Below, piece after piece: positions 11,924-52,772 of a stretch of 64,000 bases of DNA. The stretch is taken from assembly GCA_028280405.1 (NCBI GenBank), contig JANQLW010000032.1:9816-73815 (forward strand). Reading direction: 5' to 3'. Position 1 is the first letter of the stretch. The number at the start of each line of letters is the position of its first letter. Below the pieces are notes generated by a model that did no database searches, had not been told where the DNA came from, and worked only from the letters and a program-made list of their open reading frames with translations. A program made the translations under genes and the position numbers. This DNA comes from Bacteroidales bacterium (GTDB taxonomy: Bacteria; Bacteroidota; Bacteroidia; Bacteroidales; GCA-2711565).

Positions 11924-12051
11924 AACTATCAGTATTATAATCTAACCAACCCACCCTAATTATTATTTAATCAATTAGGGTGGGATTGCTAAAGCCAAGA
12001 TGCCAGGAGTTTAAACTTCTGCTGCTTAGTAATTACAAAAAATATATCAAC

Positions 12052-13656: not shown

Positions 13657-13831
13657 ACTTTAAGTTATAAATAAAGAGGCTAACAATTGTTGTTTTTATA
13701 AGGGTGTAATGGCCTGCCTTATGAGGTAAAATATAACTATGTCTTACGTTATAAAAATAAACCTGGGGCCGGTTTGTGATAGGTGAAAAGACTTTATAAT
13801 AAAATTAAAACTAATTAAAATATTATTCAAA

Positions 13832-16115: not shown

Positions 16116-16676
16116 CTAATAAGTTTTCCAATTTCTGTCCAACAATATAACTTCTAACATAGAATCTAAACCCGCATAGTTTCTGGCACTTGAATATAAA
16201 TAGTCCTCGGGATTAGCTACTAAACCATTTCGAACGGGATTTTGGTGAATATAATTTAACTTTTGTTCAATGAATTTTTGACTGTAAATAACTTCGGCAT
16301 GGTTGTCATGTGCCCAGATTTTATAGGTTTGCTTTTCTTTATATTTCCCATAATATAGAAATACCATTTCCATCCAATCTCTTCTGCTTTCTACATTAGT
16401 AAACATAACTTCCCTGAATTTTTTGGAAGTATAACTTTTGAAATCCCTGATGCATCCACTCAAATCGCTATGCTCACTTTGAACTAATAAATGAATATGA
16501 TTGGACATAATTACATAGCCAAAAATGTTTAAGCCTTTATGTTTTTGACAGTATGATAATCCGTCAATTGCTATATCACGATAAATTTGTCTGGTGAAAA
16601 TATCTACCCATCCAACAATCCTGAATGTTACAAAGTAAAGACTATCATCTCTTTCTATTTTATAACCAGTTGACAT
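16116..16676 (-). mobile_element. REP-associated tyrosine transposase (RAYT, IS200/IS605 Y1 superfamily)
   Basis: HUH motif in VIMSNHIHLLV. C-terminal catalytic Tyr region YIHQNPVRNGLV. REP clusters flank both sides. Confidence 0.85.
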
Positions 16677-16736
16677 CTTTTTATTTTAGTATGTATTAGT
16701 TAATACCATAAAATAAAAAATGTCCCTGTTTCGAAA

Positions 16737-33900: not shown

Positions 33901-35907
33901 TTATTGCCCAAAGCTTTCAAGCCAGAAATCTTTTTGAAGTTTATTATAATGCAATCTTTGCTTTCCACCCCATCCATGTCGTGCGTTCGGGTAAAGCATA
34001 AGGTTAAAATCTTTTTCTGCATTTTGAAGGTTTTCAATAAACTGAATTACATGTTGCATATGCACATTATCATCCATGGTACCATGAGTGATCCATAATT
34101 TCCCTTTCAGCTTATCTACAAAAAGATTTGCATTGCCCTGATCATACCCTTCTTTATTATCTACATAGCGATCCATATATCTTTCGGTATATACATTATC
34201 GTATAATCTCCAATCGATCACGGAGTATGCTGCCCAGCCATGAGTAAAATAATCGGCTCCTTTGGTAACAGCCAATGCTGACATATATCCCCCATAACTT
34301 CCACCGGTCATACCCATTTTGTTAGGATCCACAAATTTGTGTTTTCTCAACCATTTTACCGCTTCAATATAGTCACCGATATCATGTTTGCCTAATACGC
34401 GATAAATCTGATTTAAACCCTTTTTCCCAAAATGACCGCTTCCACGATGATCTACTTTAAAAATAATGATGCCATTCTCTGTCATATAATTTCCTTGAGT
34501 ATTGACATATCTATTTCTGATGTTTTTACTGTCTGGTCCACCATAGATCTGGAATACAACACCATATCTTTTATTCGGATCGAAATTTACAGGAAGAATC
34601 CAGTAAGCCGGCATATCAAATCCATCCGGATGAGGAATTTTAAACACTTCTAATTTTCCTGCCGGTTTTGTAGGATCAATTCCTTTTGCTTTTTTCAGGT
34701 TTCTAATTAGTTTCCCTTTTGCAGATATAAGGTCGGTAGTTCTTGGAGTTGTAAAATTGCTCCAGCTATCAATAAAATATGAAAACTCAGGAGACAGTTT
34801 TACAGAATGAGTTCCGGGTTCAATCGTTAACTTTGTCAATTTCTTACCATCTAACCTTACACTATACAAATGATTATCAGCTGAATTTTCTCCGGTACCC
34901 ATAAAGTAAAGGGTATTCTTTTTCTCATTATATTTAAGAATAGCATTTACTCTCCATTCATTATTCGTGATCTGATTTAAAAGTTTTCCATCCAAATCAT
35001 AGTGATATAGATTTCTCCATCCACTTTTGTCACTTCTTAAAATAAATTCTGCACCCCCCTTAATAAAAAAGATATCGTCATAGAACTCAACCCAGGTTGG
35101 TTGTTTTTCATTATAAATTTGTTTCTTTTCACCAGATTTTGCATCAGCAACATAAATATTTAAATCATTCTGATCACGATTTAATGTTTGATATAATAAT
35201 TTTTTAGAATCAGGAGTCCAGAATGGAAAAGCAACATATTTATCTTCGGTATCATTATTATCTAACCAAATAATGTCTTTAGAATCCAGATGAACTACTC
35301 CTAATTTTACGCCAGGGTTAGTATCTCCAACTTTAGGATATCTGGTTAATTCCAGTTCTCCATGCAGGCCATTTGCACGATACAATGGAAATTCAGGAAC
35401 ATTGGTATCATCAAATCTTAAGAAGGCTATTTTTTTACTGTCATGCGACCACCAATAAGCCTTATGGCGGGTAGAACGGCCCAGGATTTCTTCCATATAC
35501 ACCCATGAAGACCAACCATTATAAATCAAGTTAGTCCCATCATGTGTTAAACGGGTTTCTTTTCCCGTTGTGACTTCAACAACATATAAATCTCTGTTTT
35601 TTGTATATGCTATCAGGCTTTTATCTGGAGAATATTCAGGATTATTCCCTTTAATTGAAAAAGCTTTTAATTGATCCCAGGAGTTCATAGATGTTTTAAC
35701 TTCCTTTTCAGAAACATATACTTCAGATTTCCCGGTTTTTACATTTACCTTATATGTATGAGGTTTCCCTTCAACATATTTTGTTTCAAGATAGTGAGTG
35801 TCATCCAACCATTTATAAGGGCTGGGTATTCTGAATCTTTGTCCGAAAGATGACGAAGAAATAAGAATAGCAAAAAGTAAGATTGAGCTAAATAGTATTT
35901 TTTTCAT
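33901..35907 (-). CDS. Dipeptidyl-peptidase IV family serine peptidase (S9B), second copy
   Basis: Signal peptide, propeller region, catalytic GGSYGGY, and the motifs MDDNVH and ARHGW. Confidence 0.85.
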   Translation of the reverse strand: MKKILFSSILLFAILISSSSFGQRFRIPSPYKWLDDTHYLETKYVEGKPHTYKVNVKTGKSEVYVSEKEVKTSMNSWDQLKAFSIKGNNPEYSPDKSLIAYTKNRDLYVVEVTTGKETRLTHDGTNLIYNGWSSWVYMEEILGRSTRHKAYWWSHDSKKIAFLRFDDTNVPEFPLYRANGLHGELELTRYPKVGDTNPGVKLGVVHLDSKDIIWLDNNDTEDKYVAFPFWTPDSKKLLYQTLNRDQNDLNIYVADAKSGEKKQIYNEKQPTWVEFYDDIFFIKGGAEFILRSDKSGWRNLYHYDLDGKLLNQITNNEWRVNAILKYNEKKNTLYFMGTGENSADNHLYSVRLDGKKLTKLTIEPGTHSVKLSPEFSYFIDSWSNFTTPRTTDLISAKGKLIRNLKKAKGIDPTKPAGKLEVFKIPHPDGFDMPAYWILPVNFDPNKRYGVVFQIYGGPDSKNIRNRYVNTQGNYMTENGIIIFKVDHRGSGHFGKKGLNQIYRVLGKHDIGDYIEAVKWLRKHKFVDPNKMGMTGGSYGGYMSALAVTKGADYFTHGWAAYSVIDWRLYDNVYTERYMDRYVDNKEGYDQGNANLFVDKLKGKLWITHGTMDDNVHMQHVIQFIENLQNAEKDFNLMLYPNARHGWGGKQRLHYNKLQKDFWLESFGQ

Positions 35908-35919
35908 ATTTGTATATTT

Positions 35920-39501: not shown

Positions 39502-39990
39502 TTAAAGTGAGAGGAGTTTGTCAATTTTATTTTTAATAACTACTTCATCACCAGACTGGAAACCTTCATGAATCCACAAGATTTTACCTGTATCATTTAC
39601 GATAATTAAACTGGGGAAGGCCGAAAGGTTTAATTCTTTCATCAGTTCAGAATCTAAATCAAGCAGGATTGGATACTTTATCTTTAAGACTTTAGTTAAA
39701 GGCTTTACTTTTGCAACAGAGCGAGGGCCATCGCAATTTATTCCGATGACCTTTACTCCTTTTTCCTGATAATCAACACTGATCTTGTTCAGTTCTTTGA
39801 TCGCCTTTTTACATGGTTTACACCAACTTGCCCAGAAATCGATGAGTGTTAATTTTTCTCCTTTTAATTCTTCAAATGATTGATATGAATTATTCAAATC
39901 TTTATAAGAAAAATTACTTATTTGTTGAGCATATAATCCATGGGCAATCAACAATAAGAAAGTAATAAAGAACACTTTTCTTATTCTCAT
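39502..39990 (-). CDS. TlpA-family periplasmic thiol:disulfide oxidoreductase (Cys form)
   Basis: Signal peptide and DFWASWCKPCKKAIKEL. Confidence 0.85.
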   Translation of the reverse strand: MRIRKVFFITFLLLIAHGLYAQQISNFSYKDLNNSYQSFEELKGEKLTLIDFWASWCKPCKKAIKELNKISVDYQEKGVKVIGINCDGPRSVAKVKPLTKVLKIKYPILLDLDSELMKELNLSAFPSLIIVNDTGKILWIHEGFQSGDEVVIKNKIDKLLSL

Positions 39991-40012
39991 AACATTTTAA
40001 ATTAGATGATGA

Positions 40013-40612
40013 TTATTCAATATTATCAAGTAAATTTTTAACCTTGGTTACCACTCCATCAAGGTCACTACTTACATTCTTAGAACCTTTATGATGAATT
40101 TTCCCAGCGGTATCAATTACAATCAGGCGATCATATGTTGTTCCATAATCGGATGCCACTGAAGAAGCATTCTTAAGAAGCGGGAATGTAACATTGGTAG
40201 CATCTTTAAATCCTTGTACCGCAGAATTATTGCCATTCCATTGATCAAGGCCTAAAATTGCAAAATTGCTATCGGATTTATATTCATCGTTCAATTTACT
40301 TTCTACACTCGGAGCAACTGCTCTGCATGAAGATCATCCATTGCCGAAAAAGAATAAGACTACAACTTTATCTTTATAATCAGATAATGAAATGGTACTA
40401 CCTGATAAGGCTGTTAAACTAAAACTTGGTGCTGTAGTTGCACTTCCTCCATCACCATTGCCGTTTCCATTGCCGTTTCCGTTCCCATTTCCATTGTCAG
40501 GATTCATTCCATCCATTTCGTCTCCACTACAAGAAAACATTAACCCTGCAGAGACTAAAATGAAGACAGATTGAAGAAAATACTTGTAAATATCTTTTGT
40601 TAGATTTTTCAT
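40013..40612 (-). CDS. Candidate selenoprotein: thioredoxin-fold lipoprotein with UxxC (in-frame TGA at 40334-40336, residue 93 of 199)
   Basis: Two same-frame ORFs are joined by one TGA, reading ...KVVVLFFFGNG-U-SSC-RAVAP... The lipobox is LMFSC and a (GN)7 linker follows. A hairpin GAGC-AGUU-GCUC starts 10 nt after the UGA (plus-strand coordinates 40312-40323). Confidence 0.6.
40453..40497. repeat. Hexanucleotide tandem repeat encoding the (Gly-Asn)n linker
   Basis: The repeat ccattgccgtttcc encodes NGNGNGNGNGNGNGD just after the lipobox Cys. Confidence 0.7.
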
Positions 40613-40735
40613 GTTTATATGTTTTTTAATTATTTTAATTGTTTTTATTTAGAATGATTCTAAATATACAACAATAATTATTATGGTTTAAACTCAGATT
40701 ATTAAAATCAGCTTATTTAACAAAAAATTAACCAT

Positions 40736-40895
40736 TTCGATTGCTCTATTGTTCTATTGTTAAACTGTTCAATTGTTGAAAGTCCATAAAAACTGATAGC
40801 CTTTTGGCAAGCAATATAACCACCCTTTGCTAAAGCTGCGGGTGGAGATGCAATTTAAACAAGCAATGTAACAATAGAACAATAGAGCAATCGAA
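40736..40895. repeat. MITE-like element with perfect 27-bp terminal inverted repeats
   Basis: TTCGATTGCTCTATTGTTCTATTGTTA at 40736-40762 has its exact reverse complement at 40869-40895. An internal hairpin pairs CCACCC with GGGTGG. Confidence 0.7.
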
Positions 40896-40970
40896 CATGA
40901 AATAATAATTTTTCACCCTTTTTCACCATGCGTTTGTCAACATATTGTAAAAGCGCTTAAAAAAACATTT

Positions 40971-42134
40971 ATGAAAATTACGAGCCAAATATGGAACTTA
41001 TTAGCCCTCATCCTTTCAGGTGAAGCCTCTGAAAAAGACAGGCATGACTTTGAAAGCTGGCTGGCAGAAGCGCCTGAAAATCCTTACTTATTTGAAGAGC
41101 TAAAAGCCATTAGTGAGCAATCCCGTCCCACTGCTAAGTTTCAGACTAAAGATATTGAAGAGGCCTGGGCTCAGGTGAAAGCCCAGACACTTGGCCGAAA
41201 AAAGAAGATTGTTCCATTCCGGAAGTTTGTAAAATATGCTGCAGCTGCTTTTTTGATATTGGGAATCTCAGCTGTTATACTGATGCAACAGAAAAAGATT
41301 ACTCCTACTGTTGAGTTTTCAGAATCAACAGTCAAGCCAGGTAAAAGCAAAGCCATTCTCATATTGGATGATGGAAAAGAAATTGGGCTGACTGATGAAA
41401 AAATCAATTTATCCACTAAAGGCGTTCAGATACAAAACAATGCTAGTGGGCTCAGATACATTGCCGACAATAAAATAACTGAATCCGTAATAAACAAACT
41501 TATTGTTCCTAAAGGTGGGGAGTATCCCCTCACTCTTTCCGACGGCACAAAAATATGGTTAAACTCAGAATCGGAAATTACATATCCTGCTCCTTTTAGT
41601 GGAGAAATACGCAAGGTAAATATTATTAGTGGTGAAGTATATTTTGAAGTAGCTAAAGATACTGCCAAGCCTTTTATCGTCAGTATTAATAATAAAGCTG
41701 AAGTAGAAGTTCTGGGTACCCATTTCAATGTAAATGCATACCATGATGAAGCCGCAATCAAAACTACACTCGTTGAAGGTTCGGTTAAAGTCTCATCACT
41801 AATTACGAATGACAGATCACTGATCACACCCGGCCAACAAGCAGGTATCAATGAAGGCGGATATATTGAGGTAAAAGAAGTGGATACAAAATTATATACT
41901 TCATGGAAAGACGGGCAATTTTACTTCAACGATTGTACATTGGAAGCTTTGATGCATTCTTTATCCCGTTGGTACGATTTTGAGGTAGATTATGAGGATG
42001 AGAGTCTGAAAGGCCTCCGTTTTACCGGACTGATAGAAAAACACAACCCTATCGAATACGGATTAAAATTGATAAGCTATACCACTGTGGTATCGTTTAA
42101 GATCGTAGGGAATGCTATTATAGTGAAAAAGTAA
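40971..42134 (+). CDS. FecR family anti-sigma factor
   Basis: TM segment AAAAFLILGISAVILM and FecR core VPKGGEYPLTLSDGTKIWLNSESEITYP. Confidence 0.85.
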   Translation: MKITSQIWNLLALILSGEASEKDRHDFESWLAEAPENPYLFEELKAISEQSRPTAKFQTKDIEEAWAQVKAQTLGRKKKIVPFRKFVKYAAAAFLILGISAVILMQQKKITPTVEFSESTVKPGKSKAILILDDGKEIGLTDEKINLSTKGVQIQNNASGLRYIADNKITESVINKLIVPKGGEYPLTLSDGTKIWLNSESEITYPAPFSGEIRKVNIISGEVYFEVAKDTAKPFIVSINNKAEVEVLGTHFNVNAYHDEAAIKTTLVEGSVKVSSLITNDRSLITPGQQAGINEGGYIEVKEVDTKLYTSWKDGQFYFNDCTLEALMHSLSRWYDFEVDYEDESLKGLRFTGLIEKHNPIEYGLKLISYTTVVSFKIVGNAIIVKK

Positions 42135-42351
42135 TTTGAAAAGGAGACAACTTGACAATGAACGTAATTTTAGAAATAAGACAGCAGATATTGACTTTAG
42201 AAATCCAACATCCAAAAAAGAAAGGAGGAATATCGATTAACTAACAATAAAGCTTAAAACAAAAAAAGGGAGATGCTCCAACATCCCCCTAAATAAACAA
42301 TTCACAAACCGAATAACTAAAACAATTTATGAACTTGTAAACTACAAAAGT

Positions 42352-45300
42352 ATGAAAAAAAACGTACTATTGAATTTTGGGGTTTTTCCCAATAATTGGA
42401 AAAAAATCCTATTGATTATGAAGCTAAGTTTGATCTTTATTTTTTCTGCGATGCTGGCTACAGCTGCCAACAGCTATGGGCAGGAAGGGAAAATTAGTTT
42501 GTCGCTAAAAAACACAAATATTGAGCAGGTACTTAAAAACATTACTGCTCAAACCGGCTATGAATTTATTTACAATAATGATGCCTTTGATGCCGAACTT
42601 AAGGTGGATATTGATGTAAAACAGGCTGACATCCAAAATGTGCTTACACAACTGCTGGATGAGCAATATAGTTATAAGATAGAGGATAAATTTATTGTAA
42701 TCTTTCCGGCATCCTCCACTTCAGAATTAGCATCCATTACCGTAACCGGTAAAGTAACGGACTCAGATGGAAAACCCCTGCCCGGTGCTACTGTATTAAT
42801 AAAAGGCACCTTTAAGGGTATAATCACGGATCAGGAAGGAAAATATAAAATCTCTGAGGTAACCCCTGAGACAATATTGGTATTTTCTTATATCGGTTTT
42901 GCAAAGCAGGAAATTACGGTAGGCAACAAGACCACCATCAATGTTACCTTGGAGCAATCTGCTACCGAATTGGAAGAAGTGACGATTAACGCCGGCTATT
43001 ATACCGTAAAACAAAAAGAAGCAACAGGAAATATCACTAAGGTAGCTGCCAAAGCAATAGAACAGCAGCCGGTAACCAACCCCTTACAAGCCCTGCAAGG
43101 CAGAACCCCGGGTGTTTTTATTTCTCAAAGAACCGGGCTCCCCGGAAGCGGCTTTGATATAGAAATAAGGGGTCGAAACAGCATTAGAAATTGGTCAAAT
43201 AATGATGGAAATCTTCCTTTATACATCATAGATGGAGTCCCTTATGTTTCCGAGTCACTTTCTACAAATCAGTTTGGTTCTATGATTTCTCGTTCAAGTC
43301 CTTTGAACAATATTAATCCCTCTGATATTGAAAGTATTGAAATTCTGAAGGATGCGGATGCAACGGCCATTTATGGTTCGAGGGGAGCCAACGGGGTGGT
43401 ATTGATCACAACGAAAAAGGCCAGGGCCAGCCAGACAAGCCTAGAAATAAACCATTGGATGGGAATTGAACAGGTGCCGCGCAAAATGGAGCTGTTAAAT
43501 ACCGAGCAATACCTGGAAATGCGCCTGGAGGCCTTTAAAAATGACGGGCAAACACCCGATCCAAATAATCCACAGCACTTGGATGTGTTGGAATGGGGGA
43601 GCCGCTATACAGATTGGCAGGAAGAGTTCATAGGAGGAACCGCGAACCTCTCCAACACAAATATCGTCATATCCGGTGGTAATGAAAATACAAGGTTTTC
43701 GCTTGGAGGAACCCTGTACCGCACAACCACCGTTTTCCCGGGAGATTTTTCCTATTTGCGTGGATCAGGCCGCTTTAACCTGAATCATACGAGCCATAAT
43801 AAGAAGTTCAATATAGACTTTACAAGCTTTTACAATACAGGCAGAAATGAGCTTCCTAATGGTGATCTTACTCGTGCTGCTTTAACCCGAGTACCTAATG
43901 CTCCCTCCCTTTTGAACGAAGATGGGAGCCTTAAGTGGGATGATCCTATTGGAGGAAATCCGTTAGCAACACTAAGGAGACAATATCTTGTAAAAACAAG
44001 TAATTTTAATACTAATCTAAGGCTATCCTGGCAATTTACCCCAAAGCTGAAATTAAGCACAAGTTTAGGCTATAACCGGTTACAGCAAAGCGAATTAAGG
44101 ACTAGACCTATCTCAGCTAACAATCCTGCATGGGGTAATACTACCGGAGAGGCTGACTTTACGGAGGGATTGAATTATTTATGGATTATCGAACCCCAAC
44201 TTAAATATACTACTCAATTAGGACCCGGAAGGCTTGGAGTCATTATAGGGGGGACTTTTCAGGAAAATATCAATGAACTTGAAACCACAAGGGCAAGAGG
44301 TTTTCAGGACGATAATTCATTAGAAAACATTGCTGCGGCCGGCGAAACATCCATTCTGGAATATCGCTATACTCAGTATCGATACAGCGCTATTTACGGA
44401 CGTATCAATTACAAGCTGGATGATAAGTACATCCTTAACCTAACTGGCCGTAGAGATGGTTCCAGTAAATTCGGGTCCGACAAAAAATTTGGGAATTTCG
44501 GAGCTATAGGAGCGGCTTGGATCTTTTCAAAGGAAGAATTTTTCAAAGAAAATTCGATATTAAGTTTTGGAAAACTAAGAAGTAGTTACGGTATTATCGG
44601 GAGCGATCAGATCCCGGATTATCAGTACCTGAGCTCCTATCGTTATACAGGTGATTCATACCAGGGAACCCCTTCGCTCTTACCGAACAGAATTGCCAAT
44701 CCTGAATTTAGCTGGGAATCAACCAGGCAATTGGAAGTGGGACTGGAACTGGGTTTCTTTGACGACAGGATCAATACATCTGCAAGCTATTTCAGAAAAC
44801 GGACATCCAATCAACTGGTAGGTTTTGACCTACCCGATATTACCGGCTTCTCCTCCTTTCAATTCAATATGCCGGCTACGGTTGAAAACAAAGGCTGGGA
44901 ATTTTTACTCTCGACCACAAACATCCGTACCAAAGATTTCAGGTGGACTTCCAGCTTAAATCTAAGTGCCTTACGTAATAAACTCATTGAATACCCGAAT
45001 ATTGAAAGTTCCCCTTATGCTAATCGATATCGTATTGGTAAGTCTCTTTACATAAGAGGCTTTTATGACACCTCTGTGGATCCCGAAATTGGTATGTATA
45101 CCTTTGAAGATCTCAATGGAGATGGAAGGGTTACTTATGCAGATGACCGGAGATTTTATGACTTCAGGAAAGATTACTTCGGTGGTTTTCGAAATAATCT
45201 CAGATACAAAAATATTGAGCTGGATTTTCTTTTCCGCTTTGTCAAACAAAAAGGACAAAGTTACTTTACATACTTTGGGCCTCAGGGTTTTCCCGGAAAC

Positions 45301-45645
45301 CAGCCAACAGCAGTTTTAGATCGTTGGCAACAAGCCGGAGATGTAAGCGATATCCAACAATTCACCCAAGGTTTTACATCAGCCCTATGGAAGTGGTTTG
45401 ATGCATTCTATAATTCGGATGAAATAATTATAAATGCTTCCTTTATAAGGCTGGAAAATGTTTCCTTAGCCTACAACTTCCCAGCTCAGCTTCTTAAACA
45501 AATAAATGTAAAACAATTAAGGATTTATTTGCAGGTCCAGAATCTTTTTACCATTACGAATTTTAAAGGCTTGGATCCTGAAACTTGGTATATGTCCTTG
45601 CCACGCCTAAGGAGTATTACAGCAGGTATTCAGTTAAAATTTTAA
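42352..45645 (+). CDS. SusC/RagA-type TonB-dependent transducer with an STN domain (paralog of 7179-10505)
   Basis: STN segment (LKNTNIEQVLKNITAQTGYEFIY). It shares blocks with the first SusC (FSYIGFAKQEI.VGNKTTINVTLEQSATELEEV, IEILKDADATAIYGSRGANGVVLITTKK) and ends in Phe. Confidence 0.9.
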   Translation: MKKNVLLNFGVFPNNWKKILLIMKLSLIFIFSAMLATAANSYGQEGKISLSLKNTNIEQVLKNITAQTGYEFIYNNDAFDAELKVDIDVKQADIQNVLTQLLDEQYSYKIEDKFIVIFPASSTSELASITVTGKVTDSDGKPLPGATVLIKGTFKGIITDQEGKYKISEVTPETILVFSYIGFAKQEITVGNKTTINVTLEQSATELEEVTINAGYYTVKQKEATGNITKVAAKAIEQQPVTNPLQALQGRTPGVFISQRTGLPGSGFDIEIRGRNSIRNWSNNDGNLPLYIIDGVPYVSESLSTNQFGSMISRSSPLNNINPSDIESIEILKDADATAIYGSRGANGVVLITTKKARASQTSLEINHWMGIEQVPRKMELLNTEQYLEMRLEAFKNDGQTPDPNNPQHLDVLEWGSRYTDWQEEFIGGTANLSNTNIVISGGNENTRFSLGGTLYRTTTVFPGDFSYLRGSGRFNLNHTSHNKKFNIDFTSFYNTGRNELPNGDLTRAALTRVPNAPSLLNEDGSLKWDDPIGGNPLATLRRQYLVKTSNFNTNLRLSWQFTPKLKLSTSLGYNRLQQSELRTRPISANNPAWGNTTGEADFTEGLNYLWIIEPQLKYTTQLGPGRLGVIIGGTFQENINELETTRARGFQDDNSLENIAAAGETSILEYRYTQYRYSAIYGRINYKLDDKYILNLTGRRDGSSKFGSDKKFGNFGAIGAAWIFSKEEFFKENSILSFGKLRSSYGIIGSDQIPDYQYLSSYRYTGDSYQGTPSLLPNRIANPEFSWESTRQLEVGLELGFFDDRINTSASYFRKRTSNQLVGFDLPDITGFSSFQFNMPATVENKGWEFLLSTTNIRTKDFRWTSSLNLSALRNKLIEYPNIESSPYANRYRIGKSLYIRGFYDTSVDPEIGMYTFEDLNGDGRVTYADDRRFYDFRKDYFGGFRNNLRYKNIELDFLFRFVKQKGQSYFTYFGPQGFPGNQPTAVLDRWQQAGDVSDIQQFTQGFTSALWKWFDAFYNSDEIIINASFIRLENVSLAYNFPAQLLKQINVKQLRIYLQVQNLFTITNFKGLDPETWYMSLPRLRSITAGIQLKF

Positions 45646-45656
45646 ACAAAGTCATT

Positions 45657-47069
45657 ATGAAAAATACAATCTATACAACTAAGCTGACATATAAAAAGCC
45701 ATTGAGCTTTCTAACGATCATTTTTTGTCTATGCCTAATCTTTTCATGCGAAAAATTCGTAGACATTGACTCCCCCATTACGGAAGTCATTACCGAAGAT
45801 GTTTTTTCCAGTGATGCTACCGCAAATGCTGCTATCATAGGGATGTACTCCAATATGTTTGATAATTCCAGTATTTCAACCCAGTTAACGCGGGAAACAA
45901 GTCTAGCCTCAGATGAGTTGATCGATGTTTCAACGCAATTACCTTTGGGACAATTTTTCAATAACGGCTTAACCTCTGATAATTCTCATGTCTCCCGATT
46001 TTGGACTCAACTATACAAACTCATTTTCTCTGCCAATGATGCGATTGAAGGATTGAAAATTTCAAATCGGGTATCGAAAAACTTAAAAAATCAACTCATG
46101 GGCGAAGCTTATTTTATGAGGGCTTTTTGTCATTTCTATCTAGTTTCTTTATGGAGTGACGTTCCTTTGGTAACTTCTACGGATTATAGAGTGAATAGAC
46201 TAGCCTCAAGAAGCCCGGAAGTTGATGTATTTCAACAGATCATTGATGATTTGACGGAGTCTAAAAGCCTTTTATCGGAAGATTATTCTTTTTCTGGTGG
46301 AGAACGGTTCCGTCCGAATAAATTTACAGCTTCTGCTTTGTTGGCAAGGGTTTACCTGTATACAGAGGCCTGGGAAAATGCAGAAACGGAATCGACCATG
46401 GTCATCAATCATTCAGCCTATGAACTCTTATCCGATTTAAATGCGATTTTTCTTGAAAACAGCCGGGAGGCCATTTGGCAATTGCAATCATTTAATAATG
46501 AAGGTACCAATACCCATGATGGAAACATATATATCATTCTGCAAACACCTCCAACAATTGTAACATTGAGAGATGAACTTGCTGATTCGTTTGAATCCAA
46601 TGATGACAGAAAAAATCATTGGATTGACAGTATCTCTGATGATTCTCAAACCTATTATTTTGCTTATAAATATAAAATCCGGGGTGCTAATACGACGCTT
46701 CCTATCACAGAAGCTATGGTATTCTTCCGCTTGGCTGAGCAATACCTGATCCGGGCTGAAGCACGTGCAAATACCGGAAATATTTCCGGAGCCCAGGCCG
46801 ATATTAATATGATCCGTAACCGGGCCGGCCTTCCGAACACAACAGCAACTGATCAGGCATCCTTGCTGCTGGCCATTGAAAAGGAGAGAAAGCATGAACT
46901 CTTTACAGAAGGCAGCCACCGATGGATGGATTTAAAACGAACAGGCCGGATAGATGAGGTCTTAGGTTTAGTCAAACCGGGTTGGGACCCGCATGACAAA
47001 CTATTTCCCATCCCGAAAGATGAACTTACGGATAATCCGAATTTGACTCAAAATCCGGGATATAATTAA
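45657..47069 (+). CDS. SusD/RagB family lipoprotein
   Basis: The preferred ATG at 45657 gives MKNTIYTT... with the lipobox LIFSCEKF. Motifs RAFCHFYLVSLW and RWMDLKRTG. The C-terminus is NLTQNPGYN. Confidence 0.9.
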   Translation: MKNTIYTTKLTYKKPLSFLTIIFCLCLIFSCEKFVDIDSPITEVITEDVFSSDATANAAIIGMYSNMFDNSSISTQLTRETSLASDELIDVSTQLPLGQFFNNGLTSDNSHVSRFWTQLYKLIFSANDAIEGLKISNRVSKNLKNQLMGEAYFMRAFCHFYLVSLWSDVPLVTSTDYRVNRLASRSPEVDVFQQIIDDLTESKSLLSEDYSFSGGERFRPNKFTASALLARVYLYTEAWENAETESTMVINHSAYELLSDLNAIFLENSREAIWQLQSFNNEGTNTHDGNIYIILQTPPTIVTLRDELADSFESNDDRKNHWIDSISDDSQTYYFAYKYKIRGANTTLPITEAMVFFRLAEQYLIRAEARANTGNISGAQADINMIRNRAGLPNTTATDQASLLLAIEKERKHELFTEGSHRWMDLKRTGRIDEVLGLVKPGWDPHDKLFPIPKDELTDNPNLTQNPGYN

Positions 47070-47168: not shown

Positions 47169-48446
47169 ATGAGAAGAAAAACATTATTCCTCACTTTTGC
47201 CTTATTTACCAGCACATTATTTGCTCAAAACAATGCCGGGCAATCAACAATTTCCATTGGAGATGAGGTACCCAATCTGAAATTTTCAAAAATGGTTAAC
47301 TATCCTGCAAAAGAGATAGCCTTGCATGAGCTGAAAGACAAACTAATTATTCTTGATTTTTGGGCCAAATGGTGATGGGGTTGTATCAAAGACTTTCCAA
47401 GGTTGGATAAGCTACAACGACAATTTGACGGGGAAATTCAAATTTTGCCCTATGCGGAAGAAAAGCTGGAAAAAGTTGAAGATATTTTTGCCAGGATAAA
47501 AAAACAAATGGATCTTATTTTGCCCAGTGCTTCGGAGACAAGCATTCCCAAAGTAATTAACTCGAATAAGAAAATATGGATATACAAAGGTAAATTAATT
47601 GCTAAAACCGGAACACTTGAAGTAAATGCTGAAAATATTGAAGCCGTATTGAACGGTGGTGAGATTAAGTATAAAGGACTCAGAAATAAAAAAAAGAAAG
47701 AGTTTGAACATTTAAATGATTTTAACGGACTGCAATTAAATCATTCCGTATTGAGGAAAAATATTGGGGAAAAATTCCAATCAGCATTATCCAAAGGAAT
47801 GAAAGGGTATGATGTTGACTCGAAATATAAAATGCCCAAAGAAGATGATAAGGTTTACGGAAGAAGATACATTAATTTTACTATTTCTCTACTATATATT
47901 AGAGCTTATGATCTTCCTTCCATATCAGAATGGGTTATTGAAGTCGCGGATAAAAAACATTTTTATCCCGGGTATGGAATGGAAAATGCATCCAATACCT
48001 ATTGCTATGAAATAATGGCTTCGAATGATGAAAACATGGGTTTTAGAGATATCCATAAAGAGGCTAATAAAATAATGCAGAAAGACCTGGAAAAGGTATT
48101 TAACATTACAGTAAAAAAAGAGAAAAGAAATATTAAGGTATACGTACTTAGGAAAATGAAGGGTTATGAGAAATTGATTAGCAAAGGCGGTGAAAAAAAA
48201 ATGGAAGCAACAGCCTTTTTTATCAATTATCAAAACATGCCTTTTTCTGCTTTGGTAAAAAAAATTGAATACTGTTTGGAAACAGGTTTTTTAATTGATG
48301 AAACCGGGCTTGATATAAATGTTGACCTTGACATTAATGTACGAACCTATGATTATAAAGAAATGAAACAAGCCCTAAAAGAATATGGCCTTGAATTAAC
48401 AATAGAAGAAAGAGAACGGGAAGTGTTTGTGATAAAAGAAATTTAA
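47169..48446 (+). CDS. Candidate selenoprotein: TlpA-like thioredoxin domain with UxxC (TGA at 47373-47375, residue 69 of 425) fused to a DUF3738/TIGR03435-like domain
   Basis: Same-frame ORFs 47169-47375 and 47403-48446 read ...LIILDFWAKW-U-WGC-IKDFPRLDKLQ... This aligns with the WCGPC and WCKPC motifs of the Cys paralogs at 12052-13656 and 39502-39990. A signal peptide is present and a candidate hairpin lies at 47380-47418. Confidence 0.6.
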
Positions 48447-48648: not shown

Positions 48649-50526
48649 ATGAAAACTAAATACTTATCATTTTTACTGGGAATAGTACTTTCATCAACAC
48701 TATTTGCCCAGCATTCAAAAACAGACAAACAAAGATCAACCAACTTTCCAATATTCCCTGAAATTCTAAATACTAATATTCCGGGAGCACCTTTATTAGG
48801 GAAGCCGGTACTGATAAATGGCAAGAAACAGGAGATCCGGGTTGAAAAGCACGGGCTGGCTTACCCGGCCCTTTTTGACTGGGACAGGGATGGAAAAAAA
48901 GATCTTTTGATTGGCGAATTTGAAACCGGCCAAACAGGTTCAAATATCAAAGTATACCTTAACCGGGGATCCAACAAAAAGCCCAAATATTCCGGTGAAT
49001 ACTTTTATGCCCTGAATACTAAAGGCGATACGATTACGACTCACCAGTGGTGATGTATTGGCACACATCCTCAGTTTGTGGATTTAAATAATGACGGCTA
49101 TATGGATATGTTAAGCGGCCAGTACAATCCCGGAAAAATTTCGTGGTGGAGAGGATCGGAAAATGGTTTTCTTCCAAGGGTTTTTGTTGAACAAAAGGGC
49201 TATGTTGAAGGTGCCCAACCGAATTATGATATGGCTCCCTGGGATCCTAAATCAACTAACTATTGGGAATTTACCTCTGCCGGATTTGCAGATTTTAATG
49301 GTGATGGTTTACAGGATTTATTTGTAGGAGGGTTTAGGGAGTTCCGTGTAGCTTTAAATAAAGGGACAAAAACGGATCCGAAATTTGGATTACGTAAATA
49401 TTTGTTAGGGCTTGACGGAGAACCTCTATCTATAAAAAGGTCCGGTAAAAAAGAAATTGAAGAAAGCCGTAAAAAAGGACAGTATCTCAACCTTTCAGGG
49501 GTATCTAAAAGTTTTATAAACCCTGTTGATTGGGATGGTGATGGAGTACTGGACTTACTAATTACCCATTCTTATTCAAAAAAAGGGGGGAATCCCGTTG
49601 AATTTTTTCGTGGTGTTCAAACAGATAAAGGTCTGCGATTTGAGCCCCCTAAGCCTTTATTTACAGCTAAAAAAGGGCAAAAGACTTTCCCGGGCTGTTG
49701 CCCCAATATTAAGGTGGCGGATTATAATAATGATGGGGTGCTGGATTTGATCTTTGGCCTTTCTATTCCAACGATTAATGGGTTTGAAATTGATTCATCA
49801 GTTGCATGGAATTATAATGATAATCTGAAGCTTAATACACCTGGAAAAGATGTAGGCCGACAAATTAAAATTTATAGCAATAAACAAATTGCTGAAATAA
49901 AGAAAAGGCTTGATGGTAACCCTTCTCCGGATTTAAGACGATCGTATATAGGAGATTTGGAAGATAGTAAGTATATCACATTACGTCACCGGGGGTATAT
50001 ATATGTGATGCTGGGGAGAAAGAATCCTGTAAAAGCCGTAGCTGAAAAACTAAAAGCTAAGGCAGAGGTTAAACGAAAGGTCATAAAAAATGAGACCATC
50101 AAAACAGGTGGAGGCAATAGCCCCCTACAATTTGAGGTAAAAGCTCCCCAGCGTATAAAATACAATAAAGAATACCTGGTAGAAGTTGTTATGAATTTTG
50201 ATCAAGGATGGTATGGCTACGCCAATACAAAAGGGAATATTTCCCTTGGTTTAATTCCAACAAAAATTGAGTATAAATTCCCCGAAGGCTTTGAATTGGT
50301 TGGAAAAGCCGTAGAACCTAAACCTCTGCAAAAAAGGGGGACTGATGTGTATCAAAACATGAACCAGGTCTTCTTTCAGAAATTCAAAGTACCCTATATC
50401 CAGGGAAAAGAAGGAACAGGTGAATACACCATTGCAGTCATTGTTCATTACCAGGTTTGTGATGAGAACGGATGTTTGCCGCCAACAAAGGAAAATATAA
50501 AAATGAAAGCTTGGTTATTCTGGTAA
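48649..50526 (+). CDS. Candidate selenoprotein: secreted FG-GAP/VCBS-repeat protein (TGA at 49051-49053, residue 135 of 625) with a DsbD-alpha-like C-terminal domain
   Basis: The same-frame ORFs read ...TITTHQW-U-CIGTHPQFVDLNNDGYMDM... There are five DxDxDG repeats (FDWDRDGKKDLL, VDLNNDGYMDML, ADFNGDGLQDLF, VDWDGDGVLDLL, ADYNNDGVLDLI). The split cuts one repeat. The C-terminus HYQVCDENGCLPP resembles the DsbD N-terminal domain motif. Confidence 0.55.
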
Positions 50527-50736: not shown

Positions 50737-51273
50737 TTATAAAAATGAGCCTAATTCCTTTCTCATAATCTTATAAGCAATGCCAATCTGCGTTTTGACT
50801 GTATTGATGGAAATATTCAGTACTTGTGCAATTTCGGCATATTTGAGTCCGGCTACATTACTCATGATAAATATCTTTCGGCATTTTTTGGGCAGTTTAA
50901 GTAATGCCTTCCTTAGCCTTTTATGTGTGTCTTCTATTAAGCTTTCATCTTCCGAATGAGTTTCTGCTTCTTGTGTTTGACGATATTGTGTAAATACTCT
51001 TTCCACAAAAGAATCATGGTTTATATAATTAATGCAGCTATTTCTCACAGCCTGGCGTGCATAGGATTGGAATGAACCTTTAATAGTTAGTTTGTCCCTT
51101 TTTTCCCAGAACTTGATAAAAAATTCCTGAACAATATCATCTGCCGTTTGATTGTCTCTGATAAAGATAAAAGCATGCTCGCATAGCATTTCATAATGTA
51201 AACGGAACAATGACTCGAATATAGTTTCAGTGATTCCCTGATCGGGATCGATATGTTCATGATTCTTTGTCAA
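50737..51273 (-). CDS. ECF sigma factor, convergent with the end of the SusC/SusD/selenoprotein locus
   Basis: Region 2 DIVQEFFIKFW. Region 4 LKYAEIAQVLNISINTVKTQIGIAYKIMR. Confidence 0.85.
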   Translation of the reverse strand: MTKNHEHIDPDQGITETIFESLFRLHYEMLCEHAFIFIRDNQTADDIVQEFFIKFWEKRDKLTIKGSFQSYARQAVRNSCINYINHDSFVERVFTQYRQTQEAETHSEDESLIEDTHKRLRKALLKLPKKCRKIFIMSNVAGLKYAEIAQVLNISINTVKTQIGIAYKIMRKELGSFL

Positions 51274-51464: not shown

Positions 51465-52514
51465 TTAAGACTCTTGTTTTTTAGGAAAAACCAGTGATGC
51501 AATCATACTTGAACCTAATATTCCCAGCACCACATATAGTGAATGTATGGTTTCAAAGCCTATGTCTTTCAGCCAATGGTGAATAATAAGCTTAACTCCT
51601 ATAAAAGTTAACAGAACAGCCAGCCCCACTTTTAAATAATGGAAATAAGTTATTGCATTCATTAATAAGAAGAATAGTGCCCTTAAACCAATAATGGCGA
51701 AAACATTTGAGAAGAAAACAATGTACGGATCTTTAGTAATAGAAAATATTGCAGGAACTGAATCAACGGCGAAAATCACATCTGTAAATTCAATGACTAA
51801 TAAAACAATAAATAAAGGGGTGATAAATCTTTTTCCATTTTTTTTAATAAAAAATTTTCGTCCTTTATAATTCGGATCAACAGAAAAATATTTAGAAGCA
51901 AAACGGACAACCGGATGATTAGCAGTATCTATTTTGTCTTCTTGATTTCTTCCAATAAACATTTTAATACCGGTATAAATCAATAAACCGCCAAATAAAT
52001 ATAAAGTCCATACAAACTCCTGAATTAAAGCAGAAGCCGTAAAAATGAATAAGAATCTCATTACTACAGCGCCTAATATACCCCAGAATAATACACGATG
52101 ATAATACTGTTTTTCAATTCCAAAAGCCATGAAGATCATCATTATTACAAAAACATTATCTATAGAAAGCGCTTTTTCAATTAAGTAACCTGTAATATAT
52201 TCAAGGCTGAGATTATTTTTATAAAGACGAAGAGCTTCTTCAAAATTTAATCCGGAATAATCTATTGGATGGCCGAACTTATCAATGATCATTTTCAACT
52301 GATCAAATTCTGTAATACCGTGAATGAGTTGACCATTTGTTTTGACTAATACATAAAATCCCAATGCAAATAAGACCCATATAATGGTCCAGATTAAAGA
52401 TTCCTTAGAGGAAATAACATGAGTTTTCTTATTAAACACTCCAAGGTCAATTAATAGAATGGCTAAGATAAAAACTAAAAATAATCCAAAAAATAAAAGT
52501 TCATTCACGTTCAT
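51465..52514 (-). CDS. TerC family integral membrane protein
   Basis: Polytopic protein. The TerC-like start MNVNELLFFGLFLVFILAILLIDLGVF sets the preferred start at 52514. The family call is recalled. Confidence 0.75.
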   Translation of the reverse strand: MNVNELLFFGLFLVFILAILLIDLGVFNKKTHVISSKESLIWTIIWVLFALGFYVLVKTNGQLIHGITEFDQLKMIIDKFGHPIDYSGLNFEEALRLYKNNLSLEYITGYLIEKALSIDNVFVIMMIFMAFGIEKQYYHRVLFWGILGAVVMRFLFIFTASALIQEFVWTLYLFGGLLIYTGIKMFIGRNQEDKIDTANHPVVRFASKYFSVDPNYKGRKFFIKKNGKRFITPLFIVLLVIEFTDVIFAVDSVPAIFSITKDPYIVFFSNVFAIIGLRALFFLLMNAITYFHYLKVGLAVLLTFIGVKLIIHHWLKDIGFETIHSLYVVLGILGSSMIASLVFPKKQES

Positions 52515-52772
52515 TACACAAATATCAAAAATCGATTTACAAAAGTAGCTAAAGATATTTATACTCAATAAAAATATTTCTCAGTTCTTTGATGTTTTGG
52601 GAATTATCTCATAAAGTTTTAGTAAGTTTGGCATCCGGTAGAAATTGTGTGTAAAAACACATTAAAAAACCGGGAATTGCAATTTTTGAATAAAATTAGC
52701 TGCATTTTAGTAGGTAAATTTTCAAAAAAAGCATTTTTGTTAGACTTTTTGTGAATTTTTAGAAAAAAAGAA

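What the first reader, a model, noticed from the sequence alone, without database searches (positions are those of the whole stretch)
48649..50526. In-frame TGA (W-U-C) inside an FG-GAP repeat protein carrying a DsbD-alpha-like thiol-exchange domain
ORFs 48649-49053 and 49078-50526 share a frame and are split by one TGA. The split falls within a DxDxDG FG-GAP/VCBS repeat (Q-F-VDLNNDGYMDM), so two independent genes are implausible. The read-through sequence has adjacent Sec-Cys (HQW-U-C-IGTH), which could form a selenenylsulfide. The last roughly 120 aa end in HYQVCDENGCLPP. That resembles the Cys pair of the DsbD N-terminal immunoglobulin-like domain. I do not recall a beta-propeller plus DsbD-alpha fusion with Sec being described. 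Only short hairpins follow the UGA. One pairs 49062-49065 and 49067 with 49075 and 49077-49080. The alternative pairs ATCC at 49067-49070 with GGAT at 49080-49083. The SECIS evidence here is therefore weak.
Basis: partly seen in the sequence, partly recalled or inferred. Interest (0 to 1): 0.85.

Follow-up and report, generated by a model that had tools for sequence, protein, structure and literature searches.

The report
New selenocysteine beta-propeller redox protein
The in-frame TGA most likely encodes selenocysteine, next to a cysteine, in a secreted beta-propeller protein with a built-in DsbD-type electron-relay domain, and this widespread protein family is missing from current catalogues of bacterial selenoproteins.

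Summary
A single TGA (49051-49053) splits one 625-codon reading frame (48649-50526). It lies in W-U-C-I-G, just before a DxDxDG FG-GAP repeat. Pfam and a fold search confirm an FG-GAP propeller plus a C-terminal DsbD-alpha-like domain.

Full-length homologs have invariant Cys-Cys at this column and an invariant C-x4-C pair at the C-terminus. About 40 other public sequences stop at this same column. All 15 other distinct Sec-form sequences that I read as DNA have TGA there, with the frame continuing. They come from Bacteroidota, Planctomycetota and unplaced lineages.

The Sec forms share a hairpin, (AU)CCACA-GUU-UGUGG(AU), 20 nt after UGA. It has compensatory changes and strong synonymous-site conservation. 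It is absent from 35 Cys forms. This is a family-specific bacterial SECIS.

The window's own copy is the weakest, with one U.U mismatch and -4.1 kcal/mol. Two neighbouring thioredoxin-fold genes also carry UGA at U-x-x-C.

No Sec machinery lies in the window, and selenium incorporation is untested. The family is not among the 119 selenoprotein families of a 2026 review and has no NCBIfam model.

Verdict: a real and probably undescribed selenoprotein family, a new member of a known kind. Its function as a periplasmic thiol/selenol reductase is inferred.

The parts
48649..50526 (+). Complete read-through gene, 625 codons plus TAA: signal peptide, FG-GAP beta-propeller, helical linker and DsbD-alpha-like domain
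   Evidence: One frame with a single internal TGA. It is 44-64% identical over 95-99% of its length to more than 100 full-length homologs.
48649..48711 (+). Predicted Sec-type signal peptide (MKTKYLSFLLGIVLSSTLFAQ). There is no lipobox Cys, so the mature protein is probably periplasmic.
   Evidence: Read from the sequence. The hydrophobic N-terminus ending in A-Q is conserved in homologs (Q21 in at least 90%). The model shows an N-terminal helix at residues 2-17. No signal-peptide predictor was run.
49051..49053 (+). UGA read as selenocysteine (U135)
   Evidence: The column is invariant Cys in 84 full-length homologs. It is TGA in 16 distinct Sec-form sequences, this one included. 41 of 63 short database proteins end exactly at the preceding Trp.
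49054..49056 (+). Cys136 (TGT), the vicinal partner of U135
   Evidence: Invariant in 84 homologs and in all Sec forms.
49067..49083 (+). Apical SECIS-like hairpin AUCCUCA-GUU-UGUGGAU: 7 positions per arm, a U.U mismatch at 49071/49079, and a GUU loop that starts 20 nt after UGA
   Evidence: Alignment A3 columns 23-39. 89% of cells are paired, with compensatory changes. RNAalifold finds the same helix. It is specific to Sec forms. Synonymous sites are conserved.
49056..49093 (+). Possible lower SECIS stem: 49056-49060 (UAUUG) pairing with 49089-49093 (UAAUG), enclosing the apical hairpin
   Evidence: RNAalifold consensus columns 12-16 with 45-49, including several two-sided changes. This stem is weaker evidence than the apical helix.
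48751..49788 (+). FG-GAP/VCBS beta-propeller region (about aa 35-380) with DxDxDG loops
   Evidence: Pfam FG-GAP_3 81.3 bits in 4 stretches and FG-GAP 36.7 bits. The model of homolog P0002 matches integrin alpha-M and the PVL lectin propeller.
50176..50505 (+). DsbD-alpha-like immunoglobulin-fold domain (aa 510-619)
   Evidence: Pfam DsbD_N 26.8 bits against a cut-off of 25. Foldseek matches 1l6p, 1jpe, 3pfu, 1jzd and 1vrs at probability 1.00 with TM 0.45-0.50, and ScsB 6c29.
50458..50475 (+). C604-x4-C609 (YQVCDENGCLPP), the putative relay disulfide
   Evidence: Q602, C604 and C609 are invariant, and P611 and P612 are in at least 90% of 84 homologs. The match to the E. coli DsbD-alpha motif YQGCADAGFCYPP is from my own memory.
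47169..48446 (+). Upstream gene for a TlpA/ResA-like thioredoxin domain plus DUF3738, with its own in-frame TGA at 47373-47375 (FWAKW-U-WGC). It is the probable redox partner.
   Evidence: Some homologs have a thioredoxin domain (WATWCAPC) fused to the N-terminus of the propeller protein. Thioredoxin-like genes adjoin the Sec forms in L002, L008, L009 and L010.
40013..40648 (-). AhpC/TSA-like gene with an in-frame TGA at 40334-40336 (GNG-U-SSC). It is the third selenoprotein candidate in the window.
40878..47069 (+). FecR anti-sigma (40878-42134), SusC-like TonB receptor with an STN domain (42241-45645) and SusD-like protein (45585-47069), upstream on the same strand
   Evidence: Pfam. The same SusC/SusD neighbourhood occurs next to Sec forms in L003, L008 and L010.
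50737..51273 (-). ECF sigma factor, convergent with the gene
   Evidence: Pfam.

Best explanation
The TGA at 49051-49053 is a selenocysteine codon. The gene makes one secreted protein of about 600 aa. It consists of an FG-GAP beta-propeller carrying an adjacent Sec135-Cys136 pair, followed by a DsbD-alpha-like Ig domain carrying a C604-x4-C609 pair.

Decoding is directed by a small hairpin inside the coding sequence, 20 nt after the UGA, with a GUU loop. The hairpin is built from the codons for P-Q-F-V-D.

The proposed working cycle is inferred, not shown. Reducing equivalents would arrive through the thioredoxin-fold selenoprotein encoded directly upstream. They would pass to the C604/C609 disulfide of the DsbD-alpha-like domain, as in the gamma-to-alpha step of DsbD. 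They would then reduce a vicinal selenenylsulfide U135-C136 on the propeller, which acts on a periplasmic substrate. The gene's place in a sigma/anti-sigma-SusC-SusD locus suggests that the substrate is linked to nutrient uptake.

Shown here: the single frame, the Cys/Sec column, the domain identities, and a conserved hairpin specific to Sec forms. Inferred: actual Sec insertion in this organism, the direction of electron flow, the Se-S bond and the substrate.
For: 1. The gene is one frame with one TGA.
2. C135, C136, C604 and C609 are invariant in 84 full-length homologs.
3. TGA sits at the same column in 15 other distinct Sec-form sequences read as DNA, with the ORF continuing. Their source loci have 34-67% G+C, the four taken from the genome collection are titled Planctomycetota or Brocadiaceae, and one is titled Rikenellaceae.
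4. 41 of 63 short database proteins end exactly at the Trp before the column.
5. The hairpin has all 5 core Watson-Crick pairs in 13 of 16 Sec forms and in 0 of 35 Cys forms. Local MFE averages -8.0 against -2.9 kcal/mol.
6. Compensatory changes keep the stem: CCACA/UGUGG becomes CCGCA/UGCGG, at the cost of a Val-to-Ala change, and planctomycete forms have UCCGC/GCGGA.
7. RNAalifold recovers the helix independently.
8. Pairwise codon identity at the P-Q-F-V-D codons is 0.78, against 0.38 at 110 other conserved columns. None of 10,000 random sets reaches that value.
9. The loop and spacing fit the published bSECIS model, which asks for a G in loop positions 1-2 and 16-37 nt of spacing.
10. Two more UGA codons in the window fall at U-x-x-C of thioredoxin-fold proteins, each followed by a small hairpin with an AGUU or AGGU loop.
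11. Domain identities are supported.
12. Thioredoxin-propeller fusions, and thioredoxin genes next to the propeller gene (some of them also UGA-split), tie the two proteins together.
Against: The window holds no selA, selB or selD, no tRNA-Sec, and no Rfam hit, so the decoding trait is only inferred for this organism.

The window's own hairpin has a U.U mismatch caused by CCT instead of CCA. The same CCT appears in a second assembly. Its MFE is -4.1 kcal/mol over 51 nt. That misses the -7.5 criterion, which 14 of 16 Sec forms meet.

No coordinates were available to test whether the two redox centres are close. The direction of electron flow and the substrate are unknown. No membrane DsbD/CcdA gene was identified in the window.
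Confidence: 0.8

Rival explanations
1. The family really does use Sec at this column, but this particular copy is decaying. Its weakened SECIS makes decoding inefficient, so the gene is poorly expressed or on its way to becoming a pseudogene.
For: The window copy has the weakest hairpin of the 16 Sec forms: a U.U mismatch, -3.2 kcal/mol locally and -4.1 over 51 nt. The CCT is reproduced in a second assembly. Two paralogous Sec forms with perfect hairpins occur in the same sequencing run (L001).
Against: The rest of the 625-codon frame is intact, with every invariant residue kept. 4+2 base pairs and the GUU loop remain, and a lower stem can form. Tolerance of single mismatches by SelB is plausible but was not tested here.
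Confidence: 0.12
2. The site is a nonsense mutation or a sequencing error (TGT/TGC to TGA) in an ordinary Cys-Cys protein, so the gene is a pseudogene.
For: A single base change converts a Cys codon to TGA. No Sec machinery is seen in the window.
Against: The same TGA occurs in 15 other distinct sequences that are only 41-74% identical, with intact downstream frames and a co-evolving hairpin. Two further TGAs in the window fall exactly at U-x-x-C. An independent assembly gives the identical sequence.
Confidence: 0.03
3. In this organism UGA is reassigned or generally read through (for example as Trp, Gly or Cys), so no selenium is involved.
For: None of about 43 genes in the window ends in TGA.
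Against: In-frame TGA is found only three times in the window's long ORFs, always at a redox Cys column and never at Trp or Gly positions. Trp is encoded by TGG next to it. Organisms with Sec forms of the same protein use TGA as a normal stop, and the L014 gene itself ends in TGA. The SECIS-type hairpin has no role under this model.
Confidence: 0.02
4. This rival concerns function only and accepts Sec at position 135. The vicinal U-C/C-C site would bind or transfer a metal, metalloid or chalcogen (Hg, As, Cu, Se, persulfide) instead of acting as a disulfide/selenenylsulfide reductase. The DsbD-alpha-like domain would only keep the site reduced.
For: Several catalogued selenoproteins with adjacent Cys and Sec (CU or UC motifs) are metal-related: MerB-like SaoL, HgcA, MbdU and CopZ-like GxUC. 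L013 and L014 have U-C-V-C. A TerC-family gene lies nearby at 51465-52568.
Against: The genomic company is thioredoxin-fold proteins and SusC/SusD, not metal-resistance genes. No metal-binding family matched.
Confidence: 0.2

Closest known systems
DsbD N-terminal (alpha) domain, E. coli nDsbD (PDB 1L6P, 1JPE, 1VRS) and the ScsB N-terminal domain (6C29)
   Same: Both have an Ig-like fold with a Cys pair in a YQxC....C.PP motif at the end of the domain. Pfam DsbD_N scores above its cut-off and Foldseek gives probability 1.00. Both are associated with thioredoxin-fold partners.
   Different: The domain here is not attached to a DsbD beta membrane domain or a gamma domain. It sits at the C-terminus of a soluble beta-propeller. 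Its spacing is C-x4-C, against C-x5-C in E. coli (from memory). Sequence identity is only 14-17%, and a single-sequence search of the PDB finds nothing.
C-terminal Gly-Cys-Sec-Gly redox centre of mammalian thioredoxin reductase (established knowledge)
   Same: Cys and Sec are adjacent and could form an eight-membered selenenylsulfide ring. That ring would be reduced by a second dithiol centre and would then reduce the substrate.
   Different: The order here is Sec-Cys, not Cys-Sec. The pair is internal, on a propeller loop, not on a flexible C-terminal tail. There is no flavin or NADPH domain, and the protein is extracytoplasmic. The Se-S bond here is hypothetical.
Catalogued bacterial thioredoxin-fold selenoproteins (Prx-like thiol:disulfide oxidoreductase, thiol:disulfide interchange protein, UGC-containing TlpA family, redoxin family; Table 1 of PMC13188914)
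   Same: All share Sec in place of a redox Cys, abundant Cys homologs, a SECIS inside the ORF just after the UGA, and an exported redox function. The two neighbouring genes in the window belong to this class.
   Different: The propeller protein has no thioredoxin fold and no UxxC motif. Its motif is W-U-C. Neither its domain combination nor its motif is in the 119-family table.
FG-GAP/VCBS seven-bladed propellers (integrin alpha subunits, Psathyrella velutina lectin 4UP4)
   Same: Repeat type, DxDxDG calcium-type loops and overall fold match.
   Different: To my knowledge the known members are adhesion or lectin modules with no redox-active vicinal Cys/Sec pair and no DsbD-alpha domain.

Membership tests
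Bacterial selenoprotein gene (Sec-UGA recoding) | An in-frame UGA flanked on both sides by conserved coding sequence in one frame | tested here: met
   Both halves align to full-length homologs.
Bacterial selenoprotein gene (Sec-UGA recoding) | A Sec/Cys pair: homologs carry Cys at the UGA column | tested here: met
   C135 is invariant in 84 full-length homologs.
Bacterial selenoprotein gene (Sec-UGA recoding) | UGA-containing homologs in other organisms | tested here: met
   15 other distinct sequences were read as DNA. About 40 cluster representatives end at the preceding Trp.
Bacterial selenoprotein gene (Sec-UGA recoding) | bSECIS model criteria i-iii (PMC13188914 Fig. 2): 3-9 nt apical loop on a 4-16 bp stem, G in the first two loop positions, 16-37 nt between UGA and the loop | tested here: met
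   The loop is GUU, the stem has 7 positions (one U.U mismatch in the window), and the spacing is 20 nt.
Bacterial selenoprotein gene (Sec-UGA recoding) | bSECIS model criterion iv: MFE of -7.5 kcal/mol or lower | tested here: not met
   The window copy gives -4.1 kcal/mol over UGA+48 nt. 14 of 16 Sec forms meet the criterion. It is therefore met for the family but not for this copy.
Bacterial selenoprotein gene (Sec-UGA recoding) | selA, selB, selC (tRNA-Sec) and selD present in the same genome | not testable with these tools
   None is in the 64-kb window, and the rest of the genome is not available. Two more Sec-type UGAs in the window are indirect support.
Bacterial selenoprotein gene (Sec-UGA recoding) | Selenium actually incorporated at the position | not testable with these tools
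   This needs 75Se labelling or mass spectrometry.
FG-GAP / VCBS beta-propeller | Repeat profile above the curated threshold, and a propeller fold | tested here: met
   FG-GAP_3 scores 81.3 bits (cut-off 26.9) and FG-GAP 36.7 bits (cut-off 22.1). The model has pLDDT 93 and matches integrin and PVL propellers (model of the 64%-identical homolog P0002).
DsbD N-terminal (alpha) domain | Profile match above the gathering score | tested here: met
   PF11412 scores 26.8 bits against a cut-off of 25, over aa 510-619 and profile positions 21-117 of 119. The margin is narrow.
DsbD N-terminal (alpha) domain | Ig-like fold of DsbD-alpha | tested here: met
   Foldseek probability 1.00 to 1l6p, 1jpe, 3pfu, 1jzd and 1vrs, with target TM 0.45-0.50, on the homolog model.
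DsbD N-terminal (alpha) domain | Conserved redox Cys pair | tested here: met
   C604 and C609 are invariant in 84 sequences.
DsbD protein (full electron transporter) | Membrane beta domain and thioredoxin-like gamma domain in the same polypeptide | tested here: not met
   No such domains were found in the 625-aa protein. It is therefore not a DsbD, only a carrier of the alpha-type domain.
Vicinal selenenylsulfide redox centre (TrxR type) | Adjacent Cys and Sec that form a reversible Se-S bond | tested here: inconclusive
   Adjacency is shown by the sequence. Bond formation and redox cycling cannot be tested here, and the residue order is reversed (U-C).

The most novel reading that the evidence does not exclude
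This gene represents an unrecognised, widespread family of extracytoplasmic selenoenzymes. In this reading, a beta-propeller uses a vicinal Sec-Cys selenenylsulfide as its catalytic centre. A DsbD-alpha-type relay domain on the same chain recharges it, fed in turn by Sec-containing thioredoxin-like partners. The system works inside SusC/SusD uptake loci, for example to reduce disulfide-bonded protein or peptide substrates before import or digestion.

A further-out reading, at about 5% and not included in the probability given, is that the source organism no longer uses UGA as a stop at all. That would relax its dependence on a strong SECIS.
Probability: 0.3. Interest if true: 0.72.

Novelty: new member of a known kind. 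Interest (0 to 1): 0.6.

Why it matters
If confirmed, this adds a selenoprotein family with a fold (FG-GAP propeller) and a motif (W-U-C) unlike the thioredoxin-fold UxxC/CxxU proteins that dominate the bacterial selenoproteome.

It would also place selenium use in environmental Bacteroidales and in SusC/SusD loci, where it is scarcely documented.

Current pipelines split these genes into fragments of about 134 aa and 480 aa. A family model together with the SECIS described here would therefore fix many annotations.

The Sec and Cys forms differ in a way that can be read directly. R becomes Q, and sometimes V becomes A, to build the hairpin. The neighbouring His is also lost. This makes the family a clean natural example of an RNA signal shaping a protein sequence.

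The Cys forms, with their invariant C-C and C-x4-C pairs, point to an uncharacterised periplasmic redox enzyme that is open to direct biochemical testing.

Tried and rejected
- **DNA pattern scans.** A strict pattern for T-x-x-Q-W-U-C-I-G-x-H-P found nothing in genome contigs or in JGI metagenomes. The Sec forms there have other residues before the Trp, and most Sec forms come from Logan or ENA assemblies.
- **Folding the window sequence alone.** This gave no significant structure (z = +1.35). Only comparison across orthologs revealed the hairpin.
- **Whole-segment MFE.** It does not separate Sec forms from Cys forms, because many Cys forms come from G+C-rich genomes. The register-specific pair count does separate them.
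- **RNA and tRNA searches.** Rfam and ARAGORN found nothing in the window.
- **Sequence searches of the PDB.** Neither a single sequence nor a profile found DsbD. Only Pfam and Foldseek did.
- **Organism names.** Cluster look-ups gave no organism names for the Sec forms held at NCBI.
- **Literature.** Searches for FG-GAP, VCBS or DsbD together with selenoprotein found no relevant paper. The BSepDB supplement was not available.
- **Explanations considered and rejected.** These were two independent genes, a nonsense mutation and a reassigned genetic code. See the rival explanations.
Full report
**1. Observation**

ORF 48649-49053 and ORF 49078-50526 share a frame and are separated by one TGA at 49051-49053. 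Read through, they give 625 codons:
- a hydrophobic N-terminus ending in LFA-Q;
- ...GDTITTHQW-U-CIGTHPQFVDLNNDGYMDM..., where the DxDxDG loop follows the TGA directly;
- ...HYQVCDENGCLPP... near the C-terminus.

I also scanned the whole window with TGA treated as sense. Only three long frames have an internal TGA:
- this gene;
- the gene immediately upstream (47169-48446), with TGA at 47373-47375 in DFWAKW-U-WGC;
- a minus-strand gene (40013-40648), with TGA at 40334-40336 in GNG-U-SSC.

Both of the other genes are thioredoxin-fold proteins (AhpC/TSA, Redoxin, Thioredoxin), and each has the TGA at the first Cys of a CxxC motif.

**2. Domains**

Pfam gives FG-GAP_3 at 81.3 bits, FG-GAP at 36.7 bits, and DsbD_N at 26.8 bits against a cut-off of 25, over aa 510-619. 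NCBIfam has no specific model for the protein, only a borderline XAC2610-type repeat hit.

I modelled the 64%-identical Cys homolog P0002 from an 87-sequence alignment. The model is confident, with mean pLDDT 93.2 and pTM 0.89. In a Foldseek search of the PDB:
- its C-terminal domain matches DsbD-alpha (1l6p, 1jpe, 3pfu, 1jzd, 1vrs; probability 1.00, target TM 0.45-0.50) and the ScsB N-terminal domain;
- its propeller matches integrin alpha-M and the PVL lectin.

Sequence-only searches of the PDB find nothing. The protein has no DsbD membrane domain or gamma domain. It carries a DsbD-alpha-type domain but is not a DsbD.

**3. The Cys/Sec column**

The protein search returned 451 homologs. In an alignment of 84 full-length ones, C135, C136, C604 and C609 are invariant, as is Q602. 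The family therefore has two conserved Cys pairs: a vicinal C-C in QWCCIG and a C-x4-C in YQxC....CLPP.

Two top hits (P0042, P0058) begin at MDLD..., exactly like the window's second ORF. Their contigs show an upstream ORF of 133-134 aa ending in QW, then TGA, then the frame continuing.

A profile search with the N-terminal fragments returned 63 short proteins. Of these, 41 end exactly at the Trp before the column...QW, FW, YW, AW, SW, LW or TW.

I read every such case that I could fetch as DNA, plus four loci from the species-representative genome collection. All have TGA followed by C-[IV]-[GC]-x-x-P. Counting the window, that makes 16 distinct Sec-form sequences in the hairpin comparison. 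They come from loci with 34% to 67% G+C. Record titles name a Rikenellaceae MAG, a Brocadiaceae MAG and three other Planctomycetota MAGs.

The N-terminal fragments are only 41-74% identical to the window's. On a rough NJ tree of that region, the Sec forms fall into seven pure clades, and at least three Sec/Cys switches are needed. A nonsense mutation or a sequencing error cannot explain this pattern.

**4. SECIS**

Folded alone, the window's downstream sequence is unimpressive (z = +1.35). Aligned in register, the Sec forms share a hairpin (AU)CCACA-GUU-UGUGG(AU), built from the codons for (H/D/N)-P-Q-F-V-D.
- **Pairing.** With the structure imposed, 89% of cells pair, against 18-56% when the 3' arm is slid by 1-3 columns. 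Two pairs show two-sided changes.
- **Independent recovery.** RNAalifold predicts the same helix on its own, plus a possible lower stem.
- **Compensatory changes.** L003 has CCGCA/UGCGG, which costs a Val-to-Ala replacement. The planctomycete forms have UCCGC-AGUUG-GCGGA, GUCCGC-AUGGC-GCGGAC and UCCGC-AGGUU-GCGGA.
- **Specificity.** 13 of 16 distinct Sec forms have all five core pairs as Watson-Crick pairs. None of 35 Cys forms does (3 of 35 if G.U is allowed). The mean local MFE is -8.0 against -2.9 kcal/mol.
- **Synonymous sites.** Within the Sec forms, pairwise codon identity at the P-Q-F-V-D codons is 0.78. At 110 other columns with a conserved amino acid it is 0.38. None of 10,000 random five-column sets reaches the hairpin value.
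- **Fit to the published model.** The loop begins 20 nt after the UGA and starts with G-U. The bSECIS model asks for a 3-9 nt loop, G in loop position 1 or 2, and 16-37 nt of spacing (PMC13188914).
- **Imprint on the protein.** Sec forms read P-Q-F-[V/A]-D in 11 of 16 and keep P-Q in 15 of 16, where 33 of 35 Cys forms read P-R. The His two residues earlier is kept in 31 of 35 Cys forms but in only 5 of 16 Sec forms.

I conclude that the family has a genuine SECIS that is specific to it.

**5. A caveat for this copy**

The window has CCT instead of CCA at the Pro codon. This puts a U.U mismatch in the middle of the stem. The same base is present in an independent Logan assembly of run SRR20820735.

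Its MFE over UGA+48 nt is -4.1 kcal/mol. That fails the model's -7.5 criterion, which 14 of 16 Sec forms pass. The frame is otherwise intact. I keep a 12% rival that this copy is inefficiently decoded or decaying.

**6. Sec machinery**

The window contains no selA, selB, selD or tRNA-Sec. The rest of the genome is not available. The two other Sec-type UGAs in the window each have a small downstream hairpin with an AGUU or AGGU loop. That is indirect evidence that the organism decodes Sec.

The methylmalonyl-CoA mutase in the window is 88% identical to those of uncultured Bacteroidetes/Bacteroidales MAGs. The SusC/SusD pairs also place the organism in Bacteroidota.

**7. Context and proposed mechanism**

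The gene is last in a same-strand series, with a convergent ECF sigma factor downstream:
- FecR anti-sigma;
- SusC-like receptor with an STN signalling domain;
- SusD-like protein;
- thioredoxin(Sec)-DUF3738;
- the propeller(Sec) gene.

A paralogous locus at 4995-15961 has sigma, FecR, SusC, SusD and a thioredoxin(WCGPC)-DUF3738 gene, followed by a DPP-IV peptidase in place of the propeller.

Sec forms elsewhere sit in similar company:
- SusC/SusD in L003, L008 and L010;
- thioredoxin-like genes in L002, L008, L009 and L010;
- UGA-split U-G-P-C thioredoxin-like genes in L003 and L009;
- in L003, a trypsin-like protease.

Nine homologs fuse a TlpA-like thioredoxin domain (WATWCAPC) to the N-terminus of the propeller protein.

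By analogy with the gamma-to-alpha step of DsbD (established knowledge), I propose this path: thioredoxin-like partner, then C604/C609 of the alpha-like domain, then the U135-C136 selenenylsulfide on the propeller, then a periplasmic substrate. A vicinal Cys-Sec redox centre is known from mammalian thioredoxin reductase, although there the order is C-U and the pair is C-terminal.

All of this is inference. The high pTM suggests a fixed arrangement of the two domains, but I could not read distances. A metal- or chalcogen-binding role for the U-C site remains a serious alternative at about 20%.

**8. Novelty**

A May 2026 review tabulates 119 prokaryotic selenoprotein families and subfamilies. 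None is an FG-GAP, VCBS, propeller or DsbD-alpha protein with a U-C motif. Other sources gave the same negative result:
- the deep-Sep, BSepDB, GOS and 2022 review texts do not mention it;
- no paper in the library links FG-GAP with bacterial selenoproteins;
- NCBIfam release 20 has no model;
- public annotation splits the genes into two fragments.

The way the gene works is entirely conventional: Sec replaces a redox Cys and is decoded through a hairpin inside the ORF. I therefore file it as a new member of a known kind. The unusual features are the fold, the motif and the association with SusC/SusD loci.

**9. Side observation**

None of about 43 genes in the window ends in TGA, although TGA trinucleotides outnumber TAG. 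Close relatives use TGA for roughly one stop in five. This is unexplained and needs a whole-genome census.

Noticed in passing
window 47169-48446 (+), TGA at 47373-47375: The upstream gene is a TlpA/ResA-like thioredoxin domain fused to DUF3738, with an in-frame TGA at the first position of the active site (FWAKW-U-WGC). It is followed by a hairpin with UCCA-AGGU-UGGA at its tip. It is probably a selenoprotein and the redox partner of the propeller protein.
   Followed up: partly
window 40013-40648 (-), TGA at 40334-40336: This AhpC/TSA-like lipoprotein candidate has an in-frame TGA in GNG-U-SSC, followed by a GAGC-AGUU-GCUC hairpin. A Cys-form paralog (WCKPC) lies next to it at 39502-39996.
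   Followed up: partly
whole window, compared with L096-L098: None of about 43 real genes ends in TGA (42 TAA, 5-7 TAG), although TGA trinucleotides are 1.8 times as common as TAG. Genomes whose methylmalonyl-CoA mutase is 91% identical use TGA for about 5 of 24 stops. For example, the radical-SAM ortholog ends in TGA there but in TAA at window 2682-2684. The organism may be avoiding UGA as a stop.
   Followed up: partly
window 4995-15961 (+): This is a paralogous locus: ECF sigma, FecR, SusC, SusD and a thioredoxin(WCGPC)-DUF3738 gene, followed by a DPP-IV/S9 peptidase where the other locus has the propeller gene. A second DPP-IV lies at 33901-35919. This hints that these SusC/SusD loci handle peptides or proteins.
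   Followed up: partly
L003 4784 and 6060; L009 1625: Thioredoxin-like genes beside the Sec-form propeller genes are themselves split by TGA at a U-G-P-C motif (STTL-U-GPC, TKDN-U-GPC, YTTW-U-GPC). Whole loci therefore appear to have switched to selenium.
   Followed up: no
L013 6409; L014 8439: A subgroup of Sec forms has W-U-C-V-C instead of W-U-C-I-G, which adds a third Cys two residues after the Sec.
   Followed up: no
proteins P0062, P0063, P0067, P0071, P0099: Some close Cys-form homologs, for example from Pseudobacter ginsenosidimutans, end before the DsbD-alpha-like domain. Others (P0007, P0008, P0017, P0020-22, P0028, P0073) carry an N-terminal thioredoxin domain. The redox modules of this family are shuffled between fused and separate forms.
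   Followed up: no
window 49696-49701 (aa 350-351): The window protein has a second adjacent Cys pair (FPGCCPNI). C350 is common in homologs (FPGCQP), while C351 is Q or A elsewhere.
   Followed up: no
window 16116-16685 (-): An IS200/Y1-type transposase gene lies next to the methylmalonyl-CoA mutase genes. The relative L096 has one at the equivalent place.
   Followed up: no
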